Source: a virus. Taken from it: a stretch of 14,669 nucleotides of DNA. The DNA lies in the UHGV virus genome UHGV-0214741, one strand, 5' to 3'. The position numbers and the translations under genes are program-made. Shown in pieces: positions 258 to 14,461 of this stretch. Position 1 is the stretch's first letter. Every line of letters starts with the position of its first letter. Under the pieces are notes generated by a model that saw nothing but the letters and a program-made list of their open reading frames with translations, was not told the DNA's origin and made no database searches.

Positions 258-400
258 GTGTTCGCGGGTGTTCGTCGTGGTGTATCTATCTCATTTATTG
301 CTATGATTATAAAGGAAAATTTCGTTTTTCTTGTTCGCCCTTGTTCGTCGCTGTTTGCCCTTGTACGATGCACGGTGTAGTCAATGGTGTAGTTAATTTT
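258..400. repeat. Left arm repeat block: TTGTTCG-type 10 bp repeats (258-280 and a tandem array 331-370) followed by tandem 12 bp GGTGTAGTYAAT x2 (374-397)
   Basis: Seen directly: GTGTTCGCGG, GTGTTCGTCGTGG, then TTGTTCGCCC / TTGTTCGTCG / CTGTTTGCCC / TTGTACGATG as four consecutive 10 bp units, then ACGGTGTAGTCAATGGTGTAGTTAATTTT. The same architecture recurs at 14401-14461. Position next to int and att suggests arm-type recombinase or excisionase binding sites. Confidence 0.6.
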
Positions 401-2288: not shown

Positions 2289-2305
2289 AGGGGAGCATAT
2301 GACAT

Positions 2306-2335
2306 ATAAAACAAAGGCGACCGGGGGCGGTCGCC
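2306..2335 (-). terminator. Candidate rho-independent terminator for the minus-strand small-gene unit
   Basis: Perfect 8 bp stem GGCGACCG / CGGTCGCC with a 4 nt loop at 2316-2335. On the minus strand it is followed by TTTGTTTTAT (complement of 2306-2315). Confidence 0.45.
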
Positions 2336-2402
2336 AATGGATACACACTAAACTTGAACGCATCACCAACAATGCCACATTTGCGGCTGGTGGGCAATGT
2401 GA

Positions 2403-2591
2403 TCAGTCAGATTTGGTTCGTTCCAAGGTTTGCAACGAGAGCTTTTTCCTGTGCTCTTTAAGGAATTTCTCAAGAGCAAAAGCACATGGCGCGAATCTTT
2501 CTGATTCATGCTCTATCTTTCTGCGCCGTCTTTTCCGTGCCGGTGATAATGTTTTGGTCAATTCTTTATCGGTCATTGTGTTGTCCTGCAT
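2403..2591 (-). CDS. Hypothetical small basic protein (about 57-62 aa)
   Basis: ORF downstream of the RHH gene on the minus strand; highly charged (ARKRRRRKIEHESERF). No convincing SD before the first ATG; the second ATG (codon 6, MTDKEL) has AGGA 7 nt upstream. Could be spurious. Confidence 0.3.
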   Translation of the reverse strand: MQDNTMTDKELTKTLSPARKRRRRKIEHESERFAPCAFALEKFLKEHRKKLSLQTLERTKSD

Positions 2592-2633
2592 AGCAATGCG
2601 CCGTAGTTACTCACACCACGGCGCTGGTGATGG

Positions 2634-2813
2634 TTACTCCTGCTCTTTGGCCTTGCGGCGCTGGCGGCGTTTGATCTCGCCTTTAACGGCAGTAACTATA
2701 AATTGCGCCTTGCTTTCACCTTCATCTAAATTTTTTTCTAAGTCTGCAACAACATCATGCGGGAATCTGGCATTTAACTGTTGCGACTTATTATTTGTTG
2801 AACCTGTTGCCAT
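2634..2813 (-). CDS. Ribbon-helix-helix (Arc/MetJ-like) DNA-binding protein, candidate repressor of the replication operon
   Basis: 59 aa starting from the internal ATG at 2813-2811, which has GAGAGGA 8 nt upstream. MATGSTNNKSQQLNARFPHDVVADLEKNLDEGESKAQFIVTAVKGEIKRR fits the RHH beta-strand / helix / helix pattern (compare Arc FNLRWPREVLDLVRKVAEENGRSVNSEIYQRV). Transcribed divergently from the 3004 operon. Confidence 0.55.
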   Translation of the reverse strand: MATGSTNNKSQQLNARFPHDVVADLEKNLDEGESKAQFIVTAVKGEIKRRQRRKAKEQE

Positions 2814-2833
2814 TACTGAATCCTCTCTAAGTT

Positions 2834-2926
2834 GGTGCGATTCAGTATACACAAAAAAAATTTCAGAGAAAGGCTTGAAGTGCGATTCACTTGCTGATAG
2901 GTTAAAAACGAATGGTGCGATGCACC
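2834..2926. promoter_or_regulatory. Divergent promoter/operator region with three GTGCGAT(T/G)CA repeats
   Basis: GGTGCGATTCAG at 2834-2845, AGTGCGATTCAC at 2879-2890, GGTGCGATGCACC at 2914-2926 (the last is a perfect dyad GGTGC-GAT-GCACC). A TATACT -10-like hexamer on the minus strand overlaps the first site. Confidence 0.4.
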
Positions 2927-3003
2927 AAGCAACAACGCCCCGCAGTGGTGGCACACATGCAGGGCGTCTAACCACCAACGATAGCAACAGTATCGAGGCA
3001 GCT

Positions 3004-3207
3004 ATGAGAAATTATACCAGACACCCGCAAGGGCGGGACTCGTACAACCTGAATAAATACATCTGGCGTTTTATCGCCCTGAGCACGGCACAACCGCGCG
3101 TGATTACCATTGAGGCCACCAGCGAACAGGAAGCACGCCAGCAATCCCCGGCTGGCTACGTGATGGTATTCGCCGCCCGTATTCGTCAGGGGGTGTGCCA
3201 TGCCTGA
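3004..3207 (+). CDS. Hypothetical protein, first gene of the replication operon (67 aa)
   Basis: Internal ATG of the 2299-3207 ORF with GAGG 5 nt upstream; the C-terminal 67 aa have normal composition while the upstream 235 codons do not. The stop overlaps the next ATG (ATGCCTGA). Confidence 0.5.
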   Translation: MRNYTRHPQGRDSYNLNKYIWRFIALSTAQPRVITIEATSEQEARQQSPAGYVMVFAARIRQGVCHA

Positions 3208-3526: not shown

Positions 3527-3826
3527 ATGAGAACATATTTATCTGGCTTGACTGCCAGCGGTTATGCACACCCCAAAATTATCCCCGGCGCTATTTATCT
3601 GGATAAGAACGGTAACAGAGTAACGGTAAAAGAACTGATGTTTGACCGTGTGTATTTTATTCGTGATGGCTATTCATTTCATAGTTCGCTGAACGTGGAG
3701 ATCTTTATTAGCAGATTCCGGCGGGAAATCCCGACTTCCAGAAATAACCATGTGTCACGTGTGGATGTGGATAAAAAACTGCAGGAACTGAAAAACATGA
3801 TTGCCGCGTGGAGAGAGCCGAAATGA
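3527..3826 (+). CDS. Hypothetical protein (99 aa)
   Basis: ORF with GGGGA 9 nt upstream of the ATG. Its stop TGA (3824-3826) overlaps the replication-protein ATG (3823-3825) as ATGA. Hand-counted lines give about 37-42 percent G+C. Confidence 0.6.
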   Translation: MRTYLSGLTASGYAHPKIIPGAIYLDKNGNRVTVKELMFDRVYFIRDGYSFHSSLNVEIFISRFRREIPTSRNNHVSRVDVDKKLQELKNMIAAWREPK

Positions 3827-5640
3827 AAAAAGCGCCAAATTTAAAACACCAGCCGCGTGACAAAATGACGGAAGTCATCATTTTTGCGGGTAGTGATGCG
3901 TGGGCACATGCGAAGCAGTGGCAGGAACAGGACGGGCGACTGGCTGGCGATAACGTGCCACCTGTCTGGCTTGGAGAGCAACAACTTGCCGAACTGGACA
4001 ACCTGCAAATCGTACCGGACGGACGCTATCGCGTGCGTCTCTACCAGGCGGGGTTATTGCGTCCGGGGCTTGTTAATACCATCGGGCAGAAACTGGCAGC
4101 GGCAGGTGTCAGGGATGCTGATTATTACCCTGAAGGAATGCACAGCCAGAAACGGGAGAACTGGCGCGAATATCTGGAACGTGAACGGGCAGAGCAGGCG
4201 GAAAAGAAAAAGGTAGTTGAACTGCCTGTAAAGAAAAAAGAGCGGGTAAAAGACGATAACGCTTCATCACTGGCGCTTAACCAGATGGGAGCAAGTCAAC
4301 GCGGCGAAGTTCTCCTGGCACATTATGGCGGTGAACTGGCGATTCATGCTGACTCTGACACTGTTCACCATTACAACGGCGTTGTATGGGAGCCAGTACA
4401 GGATAAAGAATTACAGCGAGCTATGGCACAGATTTTCATTGATGCGGAGATCAGCTATTCGCAGAACGCCATTAAATCGGCGGTCGATACCATGAAGTTA
4501 AGTTTGCCTGTTATGGGGAATACAGCCCGTAACCTGATTGGATTCAGTAACGGGGTATTTGATACCAGAACAGGTAATTTTCGGGAGCATAACAAAAACG
4601 ACTGGTTGTTAATTGCCAGTGAATTACCTTTCAGCCCACCAGCAGAGGGGGAAACGCTGGCAACACATGCGCCGAATTTCTGGAAGTGGTTACGCCGTTC
4701 GGTGGCTGAGAATGACCGCAAGGCGGATCGCGTACTGGCTGCATTATTCATGGTGCTGGCGAACCGGTACGACTGGCAGTTATTCATTGAGGTAACAGGT
4801 CCAGGGGGAAGTGGTAAAAGCGTGATGGCGGAGATTTGCACCATGCTGGCGGGTAAGGCCAACACAGTATCGGCAAGCATGAAGGCGCTGGAAGATGCAA
4901 GGGAACGCGCGTTAGTGGTTGGCTTTTCGCTGATTATCATGCCGGATATGACCCGCTACGCTGGTGATGGGGCAGGAATTAAGGCCATTACAGGCGGTGA
5001 CAAGGTGGCAATTGACCCGAAACACAAAGCCCCCTACTCAACGCGTATTCCGGCAGTAGTGCTGGCGGTTAACAATAACGCCATGTCATTCAGTGACCGC
5101 AGCGGGGGGATCTCACGTCGTCGGGTGATATTCAATTTTTCGGAAGTTGTACCGGAGAACGAACGCGATCCAATGCTGGCGGAAAAAATAGAAGGTGAGC
5201 TGGCGGTAGTGATTCGCCATCTGCTTACACGGTTTGCTGACCAGGACGAAGCCAGACGCCTGTTATATGAGCAGCAGAAATCTGAAGAAGCACTGGCGAT
5301 AAAGCGAGAGGGGGATTCGCTGGTGGACTTCTGCGGCTATCTCATGGCGTCGGTAATGTGTGATGGCCTGTTAGTGGGTAATGCTGAAATTGTGCCATTC
5401 AGCCCACGCAGGTATCTCTATCATGCCTATCTGGCTTATATGAGGGCACATGGGTTTGGTAAACCTGTAACACTGACGCGCTTCGGTAAAGATATGCCGG
5501 GGGCAATGGCGGAATATGGCAGGGAGTATATGAAACGGAAAACGAAGCACGGTTTGCGTTCAAACGTGACACTGACGGAGGAATCAGAAGACTGGATGCC
5601 ATCATGTGTATCGGTCACTAATGACGATAGCAAAAATTAA
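3823..5640 (+). CDS. Replication protein, phage/plasmid primase P4-family C-terminal domain with SF3-type NTPase (Walker A GPGGSGKS)
   Basis: The ORF track starts at GTG 3808, but ATG 3823 has GGAGAG upstream and an ATGA overlap with the preceding gene. Walker A VTGPGGSGKSV and a Walker-B-like hhhhPD (LIIMPD) are present. It lies immediately upstream of a TGTTCACC iteron array, as for P4 alpha and its ori. Confidence 0.85.
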   Translation: MKKAPNLKHQPRDKMTEVIIFAGSDAWAHAKQWQEQDGRLAGDNVPPVWLGEQQLAELDNLQIVPDGRYRVRLYQAGLLRPGLVNTIGQKLAAAGVRDADYYPEGMHSQKRENWREYLERERAEQAEKKKVVELPVKKKERVKDDNASSLALNQMGASQRGEVLLAHYGGELAIHADSDTVHHYNGVVWEPVQDKELQRAMAQIFIDAEISYSQNAIKSAVDTMKLSLPVMGNTARNLIGFSNGVFDTRTGNFREHNKNDWLLIASELPFSPPAEGETLATHAPNFWKWLRRSVAENDRKADRVLAALFMVLANRYDWQLFIEVTGPGGSGKSVMAEICTMLAGKANTVSASMKALEDARERALVVGFSLIIMPDMTRYAGDGAGIKAITGGDKVAIDPKHKAPYSTRIPAVVLAVNNNAMSFSDRSGGISRRRVIFNFSEVVPENERDPMLAEKIEGELAVVIRHLLTRFADQDEARRLLYEQQKSEEALAIKREGDSLVDFCGYLMASVMCDGLLVGNAEIVPFSPRRYLYHAYLAYMRAHGFGKPVTLTRFGKDMPGAMAEYGREYMKRKTKHGLRSNVTLTEESEDWMPSCVSVTNDDSKN

Positions 5641-5654
5641 ACTTATGGAATAAC

Positions 5655-5883
5655 TGTTCACCACTGTTCACCCTGTCATAAATATCTTTTGTATCAGTAT
5701 GTTATAGGGTGAACAGTTATTTATGAACTGTTCACCAAACTATTCACTGTTCACCTTTTTGATTGTTTATTGAGCTTCAAGGGTGAACAGTGGTGAACAG
5801 TTGGTGAATAGTTTTTGTGAAACTGTTCACCCCTTAACATTATGAATTAAAAGATAAAATATCAAAAGGTGAACAGGTGAAGG
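5655..5883. promoter_or_regulatory. Replication origin: array of TGTTCACC iterons in both orientations with AT-rich spacers
   Basis: Forward TGTTCACC at 5655, 5665, 5729, 5748, 5824. Reverse GGTGAACA at 5708, 5782, 5792, 5868. Degenerate copies at 5803 (GGTGAATA) and 5876 (GGTGAAGG). Several are at 10 bp phasing. TGTTCACC is the P4 ori/crr type I iteron as I recall it. Confidence 0.7.
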
Positions 5884-5927
5884 GTTAAAACGCAAAAATT
5901 TTAATTTACTGCTGTGAGATAAAGCCT

Positions 5928-6173
5928 ATGACAGCGAAGCACACAAAAAAATCACAATCGCACGCCCTTGATTTGACGGAACACTGGTTAAGGGTGTCGA
6001 TAAAAATCATCGACCGCAACGCCGGGGAAGGATATGCGAAAGCACATCCCGAACTGATTAGCTCATTCATGACAACGGCAGCTGCAAACTTTGCCACGCT
6101 GACAGAACGGGAGATTGCCGAAGCGGAACAGGTGACAACCATCAACGTTAAAACCGGAGAGCAGACAGCATGA
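5928..6173 (+). CDS. Hypothetical protein (81 aa)
   Basis: ORF directly after the ori; its stop overlaps the next ATG (ATGA at 6170-6173). No recognisable motif. Confidence 0.5.
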   Translation: MTAKHTKKSQSHALDLTEHWLRVSIKIIDRNAGEGYAKAHPELISSFMTTAAANFATLTEREIAEAEQVTTINVKTGEQTA

Positions 6174-6595
6174 CAGCACAGATAGCGGCTTACGGGCGGC
6201 TGGTGGCTGACCCGCAGTTAAAGACCACCAGCAAGGGTACACAAATGACGATGGCTAGTATGGCGGTCCCCCTTCCGTGCAGCCAGGCAGATGACGGAAC
6301 GGCGATGATGTGGTTATCCGTCCTGGCGTTTGGCAGACAGGCCGACGCACTGGCAAAACACCACAAAGGCGAACTGGTGAGCGTGGCGGGTAACATGCAG
6401 GTAAGCCAGTGGACAGGCCAGAACGGCGAAACGCGGCAGGGCTGGCAGGTTATCGCAGACAGCGTGATCAGTGCGCGAACAGCGCGACCGGGCGGCAAAA
6501 AAGGCCAGCAGGGGCAGGCCACTGACGCACTGAACAGGGCAAAACAGCAGACGGGTCAGCACGATGATCCGTACGGGGACAACATACCGTTTTAG
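6170..6595 (+). CDS. Single-stranded DNA-binding protein (SSB-like, OB fold, acidic DIPF-type C-terminal tip)
   Basis: 141 aa. GRLVADPQL ... WLSVLAFGRQADALAKHHKGELVSVAGNMQVSQWTGQNGETRQGWQVIAD parallels the E. coli SSB OB-fold pattern. It has a Gly/Gln-rich linker and the C-terminus DDPYGDNIPF (compare the SSB tail DDDIPF). Confidence 0.75.
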   Translation: MTAQIAAYGRLVADPQLKTTSKGTQMTMASMAVPLPCSQADDGTAMMWLSVLAFGRQADALAKHHKGELVSVAGNMQVSQWTGQNGETRQGWQVIADSVISARTARPGGKKGQQGQATDALNRAKQQTGQHDDPYGDNIPF

Positions 6596-6860
6596 CGACA
6601 ACAGAGGGGACATTCCAGTGACATTTGAAGAAGTCCAGCAACATAAAAAGTTTCATGATTTTGATGATCTGGAAACCATGACAGCAAAAAAATATCGCCG
6701 TCTGCTTTCTTCCGATGCGTTGTTTGTTGTGGATCATCATGATTTTCTGCGTAGCTCACTGACCGGGGAAATTTTGGCAACCAACCGTGAGCAGGTGGAA
6801 GCGATGATCGAATATCTGTGGAAAATAAGGCGCAGAATGCGAGATCCCGTGAAACGGTAA
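6564..6860 (+). CDS. Hypothetical protein; true start probably GTG 6618 (about 80 aa)
   Basis: The ORF-track ATG at 6564 overlaps the SSB 3' end. An in-frame GTG at 6618 has AGAGGGGA 8 nt upstream. It ends at TAA 6858-6860, immediately before a terminator. Confidence 0.5.
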   Translation: MIRTGTTYRFSDNRGDIPVTFEEVQQHKKFHDFDDLETMTAKKYRRLLSSDALFVVDHHDFLRSSLTGEILATNREQVEAMIEYLWKIRRRMRDPVKR

Positions 6861-6869
6861 AATAATAAA

Positions 6870-6897
6870 GGCCTGGTAAAATCCAGGCCATTTTTTT
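6870..6897. terminator. Bidirectional rho-independent terminator between convergent genes
   Basis: Stem GGCCTGG (6870-6876), loop TAAAAT, stem CCAGGCC (6883-6889), then TTTTTTT (6891-6897) on the plus strand. The minus strand reads the same hairpin followed by TTTATTATT. Confidence 0.7.
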
Positions 6898-7402
6898 ACA
6901 GTAAGCCTATTAGGGCACTTGCGCCAGCCCCAACAATGCTGGCAACGGTACTGTTTTCCAGTAACTGCTTTAATACTGATTTGGCTTGTACATCCCCCGA
7001 TTTAGCGACTTTTTCAACCAGTTCAGTGATGCTGATGTTTACCAGCATATGGTTATGCTCACCTATCTGCACTTGATCACCACTAATTGAACCAATGTTA
7101 AATGTATTACTTTTAGTTGGCGTCATATGTTCATTTCCCGTGATATTTTCAATATAGAGAGTCAACATATTTGGATGATTGGTTCCCTGTCTGCGGGTTC
7201 CATTGGGAAGCAACTTCATATCTATAATTTTTAGATTTATCTCGTTTTTACCGACACGCTGGATAATGTGTTGACCAATAGTTACTTCCGGTTCATTTGT
7301 ATATGGAATTAATACCTTGTTTTCTTTTGCGTTTCTTTTACCTCTGAATGATTCGCCATTAATTATGAAAGTATCAGGATATACCATTGCGCTTAAATTC
7401 AT
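6896..7402 (-). CDS. Accessory (cargo) gene: 168 aa hypothetical protein with a C-terminal hydrophobic Gly/Ala-rich tail, candidate membrane-anchored effector
   Basis: Only sizeable gene on the opposite strand. It has its own SD (AAGGA 6 nt before the ATG at 7402-7400) and its own terminator. Hand-counted G+C is roughly 32-43 percent over most of the gene versus about 58 percent in the adjacent capsid gene. C-terminus is STVASIVGAGASALIGLL. No motif I recognise in the N-terminal 145 aa. Confidence 0.65.
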   Translation of the reverse strand: MNLSAMVYPDTFIINGESFRGKRNAKENKVLIPYTNEPEVTIGQHIIQRVGKNEINLKIIDMKLLPNGTRRQGTNHPNMLTLYIENITGNEHMTPTKSNTFNIGSISGDQVQIGEHNHMLVNISITELVEKVAKSGDVQAKSVLKQLLENSTVASIVGAGASALIGLL

Positions 7403-7467
7403 GATGCGTCCTTTGTTGTAGTCAGAGACAGCAATAATAGGCCATGGTTTACTTCTTTTGTAAATTA

Positions 7468-7498
7468 TTTGTTCGTGTTCTTTCGTGGTTGTTCGGTC
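7468..7498. repeat. Internal third copy of the TTGTTCG repeat array, in the divergent promoter region between the cargo gene and the capsid operon
   Basis: TTTGTTCGTG (7468-7477), TTCTTTCGTGG (7478-7488), TTGTTCGGTC (7489-7498) at about 10 bp phasing; compare 14401-14431 and 331-370. Candidate minus-strand -35 TTTACA (7464-7459) and -10 TATTAT (7439-7434) lie immediately beside it. Confidence 0.5.
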
Positions 7499-7688
7499 TG
7501 ACTGACAGGTGTTTACATACTGATTTTTATGTATATGTTGGAGCGTGGCACTCAGACGTGAGCCGCCACAATGCCGCCTGACCCCCTGCGCGATGCCGGG
7601 TTGATCTGCGAGATGCCGAGAGTGTCGGGCGGCGCTCCCCCCGTGTTGGTTTCACGTCCTGAATCTTAACCAATACGAGAAAACCTTC

Positions 7689-8858
7689 ATGAAGAAATTA
7701 ATCGAACTCCGCCAGCAAAAAAACGCCCTGAAAAACCAGATGCGATCCCTGCTGGAAAAAGCCGACAGTGAAAACCGTAGTCTGAACGCTGAAGAAGGCA
7801 AACAGTTTGATGAACTGCGTGCAAAAGCTGATGCCCTCGACACAGAAATTTCCCGCCTCGAGTCTGTGGCTGATGAAGAACGCAGCAAGCCAGGAACGGG
7901 CATCCAGAAATTATCATCTGATGAATTGCGTAACTACATCGTAACCGGAGATGTGCGATCACTGTCCACCAGCACTGACAGCGGCAGGGATGGCGGATAT
8001 ACCGTAATTCCTGAGCTTGATCGCGAAGTCATGCGCCAGCTACAGGATGACAGTGTTATGCGCGTGATCGCGACCGTGAAGACCGCAAAATCAAATGAGT
8101 TTCAGAAACTGGTTTCCACTGGCGGCGCAACTGTAGGACGAGGCACAGAAGGCAGCGCACGCAGTGAAACCAACACCCCGAAAATTGAACGCGTAACCAT
8201 CAAGTTGAATCCGATCTACGCCTACCCGAAAACCACGCAGGAAATCCTGGATTTTTCAGAGGTGGATATTCTGGGCTGGTTATCCTCCGAAATTGCCGAC
8301 ACGTTCGCCAGCACCGAAGAGGATGATTTTGTTAATGGCGACGGTAACGGCAAGCCGAAAGGCTTCATGGCTTACACCCGTGCGGCGACCAGTGACAAAA
8401 CCCGCGCTTTTGGCACCATTGAAAAAATAGTAGCGGCAAGTGGAACCGCCATTACAGCGGACGAACTGATCGACATTCTCTACAAGCTGAAAGCGAAATA
8501 CCGCAAAAATGCCGTCTGGGTGATGAACTCGGGCACGGCAGGGACACTACAGAAGCTGAAAAATGAGAACGGCGATTATATCTGGCGCGACAGCCTTAAA
8601 GAAGGTGCGCCGGATATGTTGCTTGGTCGTCCTGTTTACTGCCTGGAGTCCATGCCGGACATCGGCGCAGGAAAAGCACCGCTAGCGGTTGGCGATTTCA
8701 GTCGTGGTTATTTCATCGTTGATCATGTAACAGGGATTCGCACCCGACCGGACAACATTACTGAACCCGGATTCTACAAGGTCCACACGGATAAATATCT
8801 GGGCGGTGGTGTGGTGGATTCAAACGCCATCAAAATTCTGGAAATGAAAGCTGGCTAG
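7689..8858 (+). CDS. Major capsid protein, HK97-type, with an N-terminal coiled-coil (scaffold-like delta) region
   Basis: 389 aa. The N-terminal roughly 70 aa are strongly helical and charged (LIELRQQKNALKNQMRSLLEKADSENRSLNAEEGKQFDELRAKADALDTEISRLE), followed by a body typical of HK97-family capsid proteins. Followed by a prohead protease and portal. Confidence 0.85.
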   Translation: MKKLIELRQQKNALKNQMRSLLEKADSENRSLNAEEGKQFDELRAKADALDTEISRLESVADEERSKPGTGIQKLSSDELRNYIVTGDVRSLSTSTDSGRDGGYTVIPELDREVMRQLQDDSVMRVIATVKTAKSNEFQKLVSTGGATVGRGTEGSARSETNTPKIERVTIKLNPIYAYPKTTQEILDFSEVDILGWLSSEIADTFASTEEDDFVNGDGNGKPKGFMAYTRAATSDKTRAFGTIEKIVAASGTAITADELIDILYKLKAKYRKNAVWVMNSGTAGTLQKLKNENGDYIWRDSLKEGAPDMLLGRPVYCLESMPDIGAGKAPLAVGDFSRGYFIVDHVTGIRTRPDNITEPGFYKVHTDKYLGGGVVDSNAIKILEMKAG

Positions 8859-14400: not shown

Positions 14401-14461
14401 TTTGTTCGTGGTTGTTCGATATTGTTCGTGGAACGGTGTAGTTAATGGTGTAGTTAATTTT
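14401..14461. repeat. Right arm repeat block: TTGTTCG repeats x3 followed by tandem GGTGTAGTTAAT x2
   Basis: TTTGTTCGTGG (14401-14411), TTGTTCGAT (14412-14420), ATTGTTCGTGG (14421-14431), then ACGGTGTAGTTAATGGTGTAGTTAATTTT (14433-14461). This 29-mer matches 372-400 with one mismatch. Confidence 0.6.

What the first reader, a model, noticed from the sequence alone, without database searches (positions are those of the whole stretch)
6170..6595. Satellite-encoded SSB-like protein with DIPF-type tail
A short (141 aa) SSB-like protein with the acidic C-terminal tip that recruits host replication and repair proteins is encoded next to the ori. A satellite carrying its own SSB could be tuning replication, or sequestering host SSB partners during helper infection.
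Basis: partly seen in the sequence, partly recalled or inferred. Interest (0 to 1): 0.4.

Follow-up and report, generated by a model that had tools for sequence, protein, structure and literature searches.

The report
Satellite's own single-strand DNA-binding protein
The gene is a genuine, already-annotated single-stranded-DNA-binding protein that sits beside the replication origin of an E. coli phage satellite (a capsid-forming PICI); it is an ordinary accessory replication gene whose exact role in satellites has never been tested.

Summary
Window 6170-6595 (+) encodes a 141-aa protein that passes the curated cut-offs of Pfam SSB (PF00436, 57 bits against 26) and TIGR00621. It is predicted to have a confident OB fold (aa 1-103) and a disordered tail, and its best structural matches are bacterial SSBs. 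It ends in DDPYGDNIPF. The -IPF end, the Asp at -5 and the aromatic at -7 are conserved across homologues, but the tip is NIPF, not DIPF, and is less acidic than in E. coli SSB.

The window is a ~14-kb capsid-forming PICI flanked by att-like repeats. An AT-rich array of 10 iterons (5641-5927) lies between the primase-helicase gene and the SSB operon, so "next to the ori" holds.

The protein is only 25% identical to host SSB. It is under purifying selection (dN/dS 0.05-0.23). Homologues occur in 1484 of 5426 complete E. coli genomes, and all nine sampled E. coli sites lie downstream of a satellite replicase and its intergenic region. RefSeq already names it SSB. One paper already lists SSB among the replication genes of Gram-negative PICIs.

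The most likely role is an accessory coat for satellite ssDNA that recruits host replisome factors. The decoy idea is untested. Low interest.

The parts
6170..6595 (+). ssb gene, 141 aa plus stop: a single-stranded DNA-binding protein of a mobile-element lineage
   Evidence: PF00436 57.3 bits, above the cut-off of 26. TIGR00621 59.5 bits, above 53.95. phrog_44 8.4e-38. RefSeq names it 'single-stranded DNA-binding protein', WP_000126652.1. dN/dS is 0.05-0.23.
6170..6478 (+). OB-fold ssDNA-binding domain (aa 1-103)
   Evidence: AlphaFold2 pLDDT block means are 77-92, with a beta1-3 / helix 55-62 / beta4-5 topology. The top Foldseek matches are bacterial SSBs, TM up to 0.81. W48, F54 and W81 align with E. 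coli SSB W54, F60 and W88. The W40 equivalent is Ala and the H55 equivalent is Leu.
6479..6562 (+). Short basic disordered linker (aa 104-131, TARPGGKKGQQGQATDALNRAKQQTGQH)
   Evidence: pLDDT is below 50. It is 28 aa with net charge +4, against 55 aa and net +1 in E. coli SSB. Its length and sequence vary among homologues.
6563..6592 (+). C-terminal tip DDPYGDNIPF (SSB-Ct-type partner-binding motif)
   Evidence: The family motif is D-P-[YFW]-x-D-x-I-P-F. The -IPF end is found in about 107 of the 120 listed homologues. It aligns with PMDFDDDIPF of E. coli SSB.
5928..6173 (+). Conserved 81-aa helical protein (phrog_1231, function unknown), translationally coupled to ssb
   Evidence: phrog_1231 8.3e-49. 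ATGA overlap with ssb. Found in 1382 E. coli genomes, against 1484 for ssb. Directly upstream of ssb in 8 of the 9 sampled E. coli elements. The AF2 model is a helical hairpin with mean pLDDT 67.
5641..5927 (.). Putative origin of replication: two sets of iterons (ACTGTTCACC / GGTGAACAGT) flanking an AT-rich core
   Evidence: 10 iteron copies here, against 0.78 expected in the whole window. GC is 0.33. The layout matches that published for Gram-negative PICI origins (PMC6092414).
3808..5640 (+). Replication initiator: primase / SF3-type helicase (D5_N, DUF5906, Pox_D5)
   Evidence: Pfam hits. phrog_864 'DNA primase' 6e-193. TIGR01613 P4-family primase C-terminal region 3.5e-27, 95.1 bits, below its curated cut-off of 108.7.
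6612..6860 (+). Downstream small ORF (82 aa by RefSeq; phrog_1957, function unknown), the last gene of the ssb operon
   Evidence: phrog_1957 1.9e-36. RefSeq CDS WP_096949951.1.
6870..6889 (.). Bidirectional intrinsic terminator that closes the hyp81-ssb-hyp82 operon and the convergent 168-aa gene
   Evidence: A 7-bp stem with 6 GC pairs and T-runs on both strands.
341..400 (+). attL-like repeat (left boundary of the element)
   Evidence: 82% identical over 60 nt to 14402-14461. The element is inserted between cspD/yljB and clpS in a near-identical genome.
14402..14461 (+). attR-like repeat (right boundary of the element)

Best explanation
The gene encodes a bona fide bacterial-type SSB belonging to a lineage carried by enterobacterial phage satellites (PICIs and capsid-forming PICIs). 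It is part of the satellite's replication module. The inferred sequence of events is as follows. After helper-phage induction, rightward transcription runs through the primase-helicase gene, the iteron origin, the 81-aa ORF, ssb and the next small ORF, and stops at the terminator at 6870-6889. The initiator melts the AT-rich core of the origin. The satellite SSB, probably a tetramer, coats the exposed single strands. Its conserved -D-x-IPF tip docks onto the host proteins that normally read the host SSB tail (such as the clamp-loader chi subunit, PriA and RNase HI), so that the host replisome works on satellite DNA. Carrying its own SSB gives the satellite extra ssDNA-coating capacity while it and its helper both amplify and compete for the host's limited SSB. 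Shown here: SSB family membership, the fold, the disordered tail, the conserved tip, purifying selection, linkage to replicase and ori, and satellite context. Inferred: tetramerisation, ssDNA binding, which partners bind, co-transcription, and the benefit to the satellite.
For: Family and fold. ssDNA-stacking residues W48, F54 and W81 are conserved. The tip is conserved while the linker varies. Purifying selection, dN/dS 0.05-0.23. In all nine sampled E. coli sites the gene follows the replicase and the intergenic region after it, whatever the replicase family (D5/SF3, RepA helicase, DUF927). In Klebsiella it follows a primase-helicase with a zinc-binding domain. Iteron origin directly upstream. 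No terminator was predicted between the primase-helicase gene and ssb, and there is a strong terminator after the operon. The literature groups 'Primase, SSB and DUF5906' as PICI replication genes co-localised with mapped origins (PMC10111431).
Against: The rep+ori of EcCICFT073 alone drives plasmid replication in E. coli DH5alpha (PMC6092414), so host SSB suffices for at least one PICI replicon. The ssb is frameshifted in one otherwise intact-looking cf-PICI (L013). O157/O145 PICI copies carry -ISF instead of -IPF. From my own knowledge, that change abolishes partner binding in E. coli ssb-113. Both cases show the tip or the whole gene can be lost without loss of the element. The W40 and H55 equivalents are not conserved. 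No experiment on any satellite SSB was found.
Confidence: 0.7

Rival explanations
1. Decoy or competitor. The satellite SSB mainly titrates host SSB-interacting proteins (ExoI, RecJ, RecQ, PriA, chi and others) or displaces host SSB. This would handicap helper-phage replication or recombination (interference), or protect the satellite's cos-ended linear DNA from SSB-stimulated nucleases.
For: The tip is conserved but differs from the host's: less acidic, position -4 variable, and an invariant Pro-aromatic at -8/-7. The linker is half as long and basic, and the whole protein has pI 8.9 against 5.4 for host SSB. The lineage is only 25% identical to host SSB and is absent from sequenced enterobacterial phages, so it has evolved separately. 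A phage SSB-like protein with an FDDDIPF tip has been proposed to interfere with ExoI-controlled processes (bioRxiv 10.64898/2026.04.29.721553). Genes just after a PICI ori are often interference genes (PMC6092414).
Against: There is no direct evidence. Its constant position within the replicase-ori module, whatever the packaging or interference module, fits a replication role better. A decoy would not need an intact ssDNA-binding OB fold under strong purifying selection.
Confidence: 0.15
2. Defence interplay. The satellite SSB counters, or itself triggers, host or satellite-borne anti-phage systems that sense phage SSBs or ssDNA (retron- or DRT-type sensors). This would affect the outcome of helper infection.
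For: Phage SSB-like proteins can trigger a defence system. Satellites commonly carry defence cargo, and a low-GC cargo-like gene lies immediately downstream (6896-7402).
Against: No PADLOC family matches ssb or its neighbours. The neighbours of ssb vary (PerC, ProQ/FinO, phrog_1957), whereas its upstream linkage to replicase and intergenic region is constant.
Confidence: 0.07
3. A decaying hitch-hiker: a captured SSB gene with no current function for the element.
For: One frameshifted copy (L013). Tail-less or truncated relatives occur on small plasmids. The gene is a GC outlier, 0.60 against 0.49 for the window.
Against: dN/dS is 0.05-0.23 against eight homologues. The start, OB core and tip are invariant across hundreds of sequence clusters. 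It is present in 27% of complete E. coli genomes.
Confidence: 0.03

Closest known systems
Escherichia coli chromosomal SSB (P0AGE0; PDB 1EQQ/1EYG)
   Same: One N-terminal OB fold, a disordered linker, and a C-terminal tip ending in -IPF preceded by Asp and an aromatic residue at -7. The equivalents of W54, F60 and W88 are conserved.
   Different: Only 25% identity over the OB domain. It has 141 aa against 178. The linker is 28 aa and basic (net +4), against 55 aa and Gly/Gln/Pro-rich. The tip is DNIPF rather than DDIPF. W40 is Ala and H55 is Leu. The pI is 8.9 against 5.4.
SSB genes of Gram-negative PICIs and helper-embedded PICIs (the 'Replication' gene category of Mageeney et al. 2023, PMC10111431)
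   Same: It is the same gene family in the same position, after the replicase and ori of int-alpA-type satellites. One sampled homologue (L003) lies in a PICI embedded in a prophage capsid gene, exactly the configuration described in that paper.
   Different: There is no real difference. Here the carrier is a capsid-forming PICI rather than a classical or helper-embedded PICI. That paper only classifies the gene and does not analyse its sequence features or its function.
Phage-encoded SSBs of PHROG 44 (for example Staphylococcus and Streptococcus temperate phages)
   Same: Same Pfam family, similar short length, and a replication-module location. The best PDB and phage matches are Gram-positive-type SsbA/SsbB-like proteins.
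   Different: At most about 34% identity to any record in the GenBank phage collection. No enterobacterial phage hit was found at E<=1e-5.
Conjugative-plasmid leading-region SSBs (F-plasmid Ssb type)
   Same: A mobile-element-encoded SSB with a host-like C-terminal tip.
   Different: The lineage and context differ. Only 45 of 72,556 plasmid records match, and most matches are integrated or mis-assigned satellites or small non-conjugative plasmids. Satellite DNA enters the cell as dsDNA, so the plasmid rationale of coating incoming ssDNA does not apply (inference).

Membership tests
Bacterial SSB family (Pfam PF00436 / TIGR00621) | The sequence matches the family profile above the curated cut-off | tested here: met
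   PF00436 57.3 bits against a cut-off of 26, covering profile positions 4-101 of 104. TIGR00621 59.5 bits against 53.95.
Bacterial SSB family (Pfam PF00436 / TIGR00621) | OB-fold beta-barrel with a helix between strands 3 and 4 | tested here: met
   AF2 model: strands 3-11, 16-19, 25-36 and 44-54, helix 55-62, strands 69-82 and 88-101, with pLDDT block means of 77-92. The top 50 Foldseek PDB hits are all SSBs, TM up to 0.81.
Bacterial SSB family (Pfam PF00436 / TIGR00621) | Aromatic residues that stack on ssDNA (E. coli W40, W54, F60, W88) | tested here: met
   Three of the four are conserved (W48, F54, W81) and invariant in the family. The W40 equivalent is Ala.
Bacterial SSB family (Pfam PF00436 / TIGR00621) | Disordered linker followed by a conserved acidic tip ending in -IPF | tested here: met
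   aa 104-141 have pLDDT below 50. The tip is DDPYGDNIPF, and -IPF occurs in about 107 of 120 homologues. The acidity is reduced: Asn at -4 and Gly at -6.
Bacterial SSB family (Pfam PF00436 / TIGR00621) | Homotetramer that binds ssDNA with high affinity | not testable with these tools
   Only a monomer model could be built. The residue equivalent to E. coli H55 at the tetramer interface is Leu. This needs SEC-MALS and EMSA or fluorescence quenching.
Capsid-forming PICI (the carrier element) | int, AlpA-type regulator and primase/replicase plus ori, together with its own capsid, protease, portal, head-tail connector, HNH, TerS and TerL | tested here: met
   ORF map and Pfam/PHROG/RefSeq names. 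Iteron ori.
Capsid-forming PICI (the carrier element) | No tail or lysis genes; size about 14 kb; bounded by att repeats in the chromosome | tested here: met
   None of the RefSeq CDSs of the near-identical element in L001 is named as a tail, holin or endolysin gene. The att-like repeats at 341-400 and 14402-14461 give about 14.1 kb. The published median for cf-PICIs is 14 kb (PMC10085698).
Capsid-forming PICI (the carrier element) | Helper-phage-dependent induction and transfer using hijacked tails | not testable with these tools
   This needs induction and transduction assays.
Conjugative-plasmid leading-region SSB | Located in a plasmid leading region with psiB/ardA-type genes, on conjugative plasmids | tested here: not met
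   Chromosomal satellite context. Only 45 plasmid records match, and 39 of them are non-mobilizable.

The most novel reading that the evidence does not exclude
The satellite SSB would be a specialised competitor of host SSB rather than a spare copy of it. Its short basic linker and its altered, less acidic D-x-IPF tip would give it a different partner spectrum. With that it would channel host replisome and repair factors to satellite DNA, starve the helper phage of them, or shield cos-ended DNA from SSB-stimulated exonucleases. The translationally coupled 81-aa protein would act as its cofactor. This would amount to a new satellite interference or hijacking mechanism acting on the host SSB interactome.
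Probability: 0.12. Interest if true: 0.55.

Novelty: already known. Interest (0 to 1): 0.2.

Why it matters
It matters little as a discovery. The protein already carries the name SSB in RefSeq, and SSB is already listed among the replication genes of Gram-negative PICIs. Two modest points remain.

First, a distinct SSB lineage, only 25% identical to host SSB and with no close relative in the sequenced-phage collection, sits in about a quarter of complete E. coli genomes, always inside satellite replication modules in the nine sites sampled.

Second, nobody appears to have tested what it does. In the cf-PICI paper examined, the mutational analysis addressed the packaging module. A simple deletion or tip-mutant experiment would show whether satellites need their own SSB to out-replicate the helper, or use it to manipulate the host SSB interactome.

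Tried and rejected
1. Related loci across species: the scan of genome contigs with the family alignment returned only two loci, because the back-translated patterns were too narrow. I sampled contexts from the E. coli and plasmid collections instead.

2. The 81-aa partner: there is no Pfam, NCBIfam or PADLOC match. The AF2 model is only a helical hairpin at mean pLDDT 67. That is too weak for a meaningful fold search, so none was run.

3. ncRNA or tRNA in the window: none found.

4. Promoter scan of 5500-7800: no sigma-70-like site lies upstream of the ssb operon. I therefore infer read-through from the upstream operon, but this is not shown.

5. Plasmid-type SSB hypothesis: rejected on context and distribution.

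6. Recent capture of the host ssb: rejected, at 25% identity.

7. A pseudogene or chance ORF: rejected by the profile scores and dN/dS.

8. I did not run the representative-library search or a third homologue search. They return no context and would not change the verdict.

Full report
**Observation**

Window 6170-6595 (+) is an intact ORF of 141 aa that ends ...HDDPYGDNIPF. Its ATG overlaps the TGA of an upstream 81-aa ORF (ATGA at 6170-6173), and a GGAG lies 10 nt upstream. The N-terminus MTAQI is invariant in the aligned homologues.

The protein passes the curated thresholds of two SSB models: Pfam PF00436 (57.3 bits, cut-off 26, E=1.8e-15) and TIGR00621 (59.5 bits, cut-off 53.95). It also matches PHROG 44, 'single strand DNA binding protein' (8.4e-38), and it hits about 30 crystallised bacterial SSBs by sequence (best 6e-10).

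An AlphaFold2 model built on 12 family members gives a confident OB fold for aa 1-103 (block means of pLDDT 77-92). The topology is the canonical one: strands, then a helix at 55-62, then two long strands. The C-terminus (aa 104-141) is disordered, with pLDDT below 50. The top 50 Foldseek matches in the PDB are all bacterial SSBs, with target-normalised TM-scores up to 0.81. The would-refute condition 'no SSB profile match' is therefore not met. ssDNA binding itself cannot be tested here.

**Comparison with the host protein**

I first checked my recalled E. coli SSB sequence against PDB 1EQQ; it is identical over 178 aa. The window protein is only 25% identical to it over the OB domain.

- W48, F54 and W81 align with the ssDNA-stacking residues W54, F60 and W88.
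- The W40 equivalent is Ala, and the H55 equivalent (tetramer interface) is Leu.
- The linker is 28 aa with net charge +4, against 55 aa, Gly/Gln/Pro-rich and net +1 in the host. The overall pI is 8.9 against 5.4.
- The tip aligns as DDPYGDNIPF against PMDFDDDIPF. The -IPF end, the Asp at -5 and an aromatic at -7 are shared, but positions -4 and -6 are Asn and Gly instead of Asp.

Across the 120 best homologue clusters the tip reads D-P-[YFW]-x-D-x-IPF. The -IPF end occurs in about 107 of them, and most exceptions are truncated entries. Linker length and sequence vary.

Pairwise Nei-Gojobori dN/dS against eight homologues is 0.05-0.23 in the OB domain. The gene is under purifying selection.

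**Context**

The window is a capsid-forming PICI (cf-PICI). Its parts, in order, are:

- integrase, 412-1659;
- AlpA-like regulator, 2079-2288;
- YlcI/YnfO protein on the minus strand, and an Icd-like region;
- DUF4222 protein, 3527-3826;
- D5_N/DUF5906/Pox_D5 primase-helicase, 3808-5640;
- the ssb operon;
- a convergent 168-aa gene;
- HK97-type capsid, prohead protease, portal, head-tail connector, HNH endonuclease, TerS and TerL.

A 98%-identical element in E. coli FFFEB2 lies between cspD/yljB and clpS and has the same RefSeq gene names. That annotation includes 'single-stranded DNA-binding protein' WP_000126652.1. Imperfect direct repeats at 341-400 and 14402-14461 bound about 14.1 kb. This matches the published 14-kb median for cf-PICIs (PMC10085698). 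No tail, holin or endolysin gene is present.

**The origin**

The 287-bp gap between the primase-helicase gene and the 81-aa ORF has 33-35% GC. It holds 10 of the window's 12 matches to GGTGAACAGT (one mismatch allowed), in both orientations, around an AT-rich core. The chance expectation for the whole window is 0.78, and none of 200 shuffles reached 12. [quoted passage not shown] 'Next to the ori' is thus supported, with the 81-aa ORF in between.

A strong bidirectional terminator at 6870-6889 follows the third small ORF of the operon. No terminator and no sigma-70-like promoter was predicted between the primase-helicase gene and ssb. I infer co-transcription with the replication genes, but this is not shown.

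**Distribution**

- Megablast finds ssb homologues in 1484 of 5426 complete E. coli genomes, at 1751 places and up to six per genome.
- The 81-aa ORF occurs in 1382 genomes.
- This element's capsid gene occurs in only 156 genomes.

The hyp81-ssb cassette is therefore shared by many more elements than this particular cf-PICI.

I inspected nine E. coli sites: L001-L004 and L010-L014. All are int-alpA-...-replicase-intergenic region-(hyp81)-ssb-...-packaging-module satellites. They include cf-PICIs, classical PICIs with a lambda-like capsid/decoration/TerS module, and one PICI embedded in a prophage capsid gene. The replicase upstream belongs to different families: D5/SF3 primase, RepA-family helicase or DUF927. 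In Klebsiella it is a primase-helicase with a zinc-binding domain. The SSB thus travels with 'a replicase plus the region after it' rather than with one particular initiator.

An O157:H7 cf-PICI at tqsA carries the identical 81-aa protein and a 136-aa SSB ending DDDPYGDDIPF.

No record in the GenBank phage collection exceeds about 34% identity, and no enterobacterial phage matches at E<=1e-5. Only 45 plasmid records match; most are mis-assigned chromosomal fragments or small non-conjugative replicons. This is a satellite or small-replicon lineage. It is not the conjugative-plasmid SSB and not a recent copy of host ssb.

**What is already known**

RefSeq/PGAP already names these proteins SSB. 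Mageeney et al. [quoted passage not shown]

The cf-PICI papers and the SatelliteFinder paper do not mention SSB. I found no experiment on a satellite SSB. Fillol-Salom et al. 2018 showed that the rep gene plus ori of EcCICFT073 suffices to replicate a plasmid in DH5alpha (PMC6092414). Host SSB can therefore serve a PICI replicon, and the satellite SSB is at most accessory.

**Mechanism**

The best-supported reading (confidence 0.7) is an accessory replication SSB:

1. It is induced together with the initiator.
2. It coats the strands opened at the iteron origin and at the forks.
3. Through the conserved D-x-IPF tip it recruits the host factors that normally read the host SSB tail.
4. This gives the satellite extra ssDNA-coating capacity while helper and satellite amplify together.

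Family membership, fold, tail, selection and linkage are shown. Oligomeric state, ssDNA binding, partners, co-transcription and benefit are inferred.

The rivals are:

- A decoy or competitor of the host SSB interactome, 0.15. This is suggested by the divergent linker and tip, and by a recent report that a phage SSB-like protein with an FDDDIPF tip perturbs ExoI-controlled processes.
- A role in defence triggering or evasion, 0.07. There is no PADLOC hit.
- A decaying hitch-hiker, 0.03. This is contradicted by dN/dS and by the distribution.

Some evidence argues against a strict requirement for the gene. One cf-PICI has a frameshifted ssb (L013). The O157/O145 PICI copies end in -ISF. From my own knowledge, the same Pro-to-Ser change in E. 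coli ssb-113 (P176S) disables partner binding.

**Verdict**

The feature is ordinary and already annotated and classified in the literature. The only open question is functional. Interest is 0.2.

Noticed in passing
window 6896-7402 (-): A 168-aa gene of unknown function (phrog_5789, 2.9e-84). It has low GC (0.38), is convergent with the ssb operon and shares the bidirectional terminator at 6870-6889. It has no significant Pfam hit (only RHIM at E=0.014, below the gathering score) and no PADLOC hit. It occupies the variable slot between the replication and capsid modules, where other satellites carry PerC or ProQ/FinO genes, so it may be cargo or an accessory gene.
   Followed up: partly
window 3808-4242 (primase-helicase aa 1-145); L002 7137-7571: The first ~145 aa of the D5/SF3 primase-helicase are 68% identical to the N-terminus of the otherwise unrelated RepA-family helicase replicase of an O157:H7 PICI. 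They are 48% identical to the equivalent region in an E. albertii element (L005). However, the iteron GGTGAACAGT is absent from those loci. This looks like a shuffled N-terminal module that is probably not the iteron-specificity determinant.
   Followed up: partly
L002 9001-9411; L012 8001-8411: The SSBs of the O157:H7 and O145 PICIs at roxA-phoQ end in ...GDDISF. The Pro-to-Ser change at the penultimate residue is the same change as the classic E. coli ssb-113 (P176S) allele (my own knowledge). This predicts a tip that is defective in partner binding.
   Followed up: no
L003 2279-14392: A PICI carrying the same hyp81-ssb cassette is inserted inside the major capsid gene of a lambdoid prophage; partial capsid CDSs lie on both sides. 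This is the helper-embedded PICI configuration described in PMC10111431.
   Followed up: partly
L013 8001-8344: The ssb is annotated as frameshifted in an otherwise complete-looking cf-PICI of E. coli STEC299. The gene can therefore be lost without immediate loss of the element.
   Followed up: no
window 6170-6595: The ssb gene is a compositional outlier. Its GC is 0.60 and its GC3 is 0.69, against 0.49 for the whole window and a GC3 of 0.53 for the primase-helicase gene. The flanking ori (0.33) and downstream genes (0.38-0.43) are AT-rich. This points to mosaic assembly of the module.
   Followed up: partly
L007 6761-7075; L009 6998-7477: Relatives of this SSB occur on an Enterobacter 15-kb plasmid, next to a VapE-domain protein, and on Sodalis plasmid pSG2, after a relaxase region. 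They are truncated: the Enterobacter copy has no linker or tip, and the Sodalis copy ends ...PPFDDI without the final PF.
   Followed up: partly
window 6564-6860 (+): The ORF downstream of ssb can be read from an ATG at 6564, inside the ssb 3' end (98 aa). RefSeq starts it at 6612, which is an ATT codon in this window, giving 82 aa. The PHROG match begins at residue 18 of the long form. The true start is uncertain.
   Followed up: no
window 2299-3207 (+) and 2634-2987 (-): A 302-aa ORF overlaps the YlcI/YnfO-family gene on the opposite strand. RefSeq annotates only a partial pseudogene there in the near-identical element. In related satellites this region holds Bro-N or Icd-like fragments, so it looks like a decayed or rearranged 'Bro zone'.
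   Followed up: no
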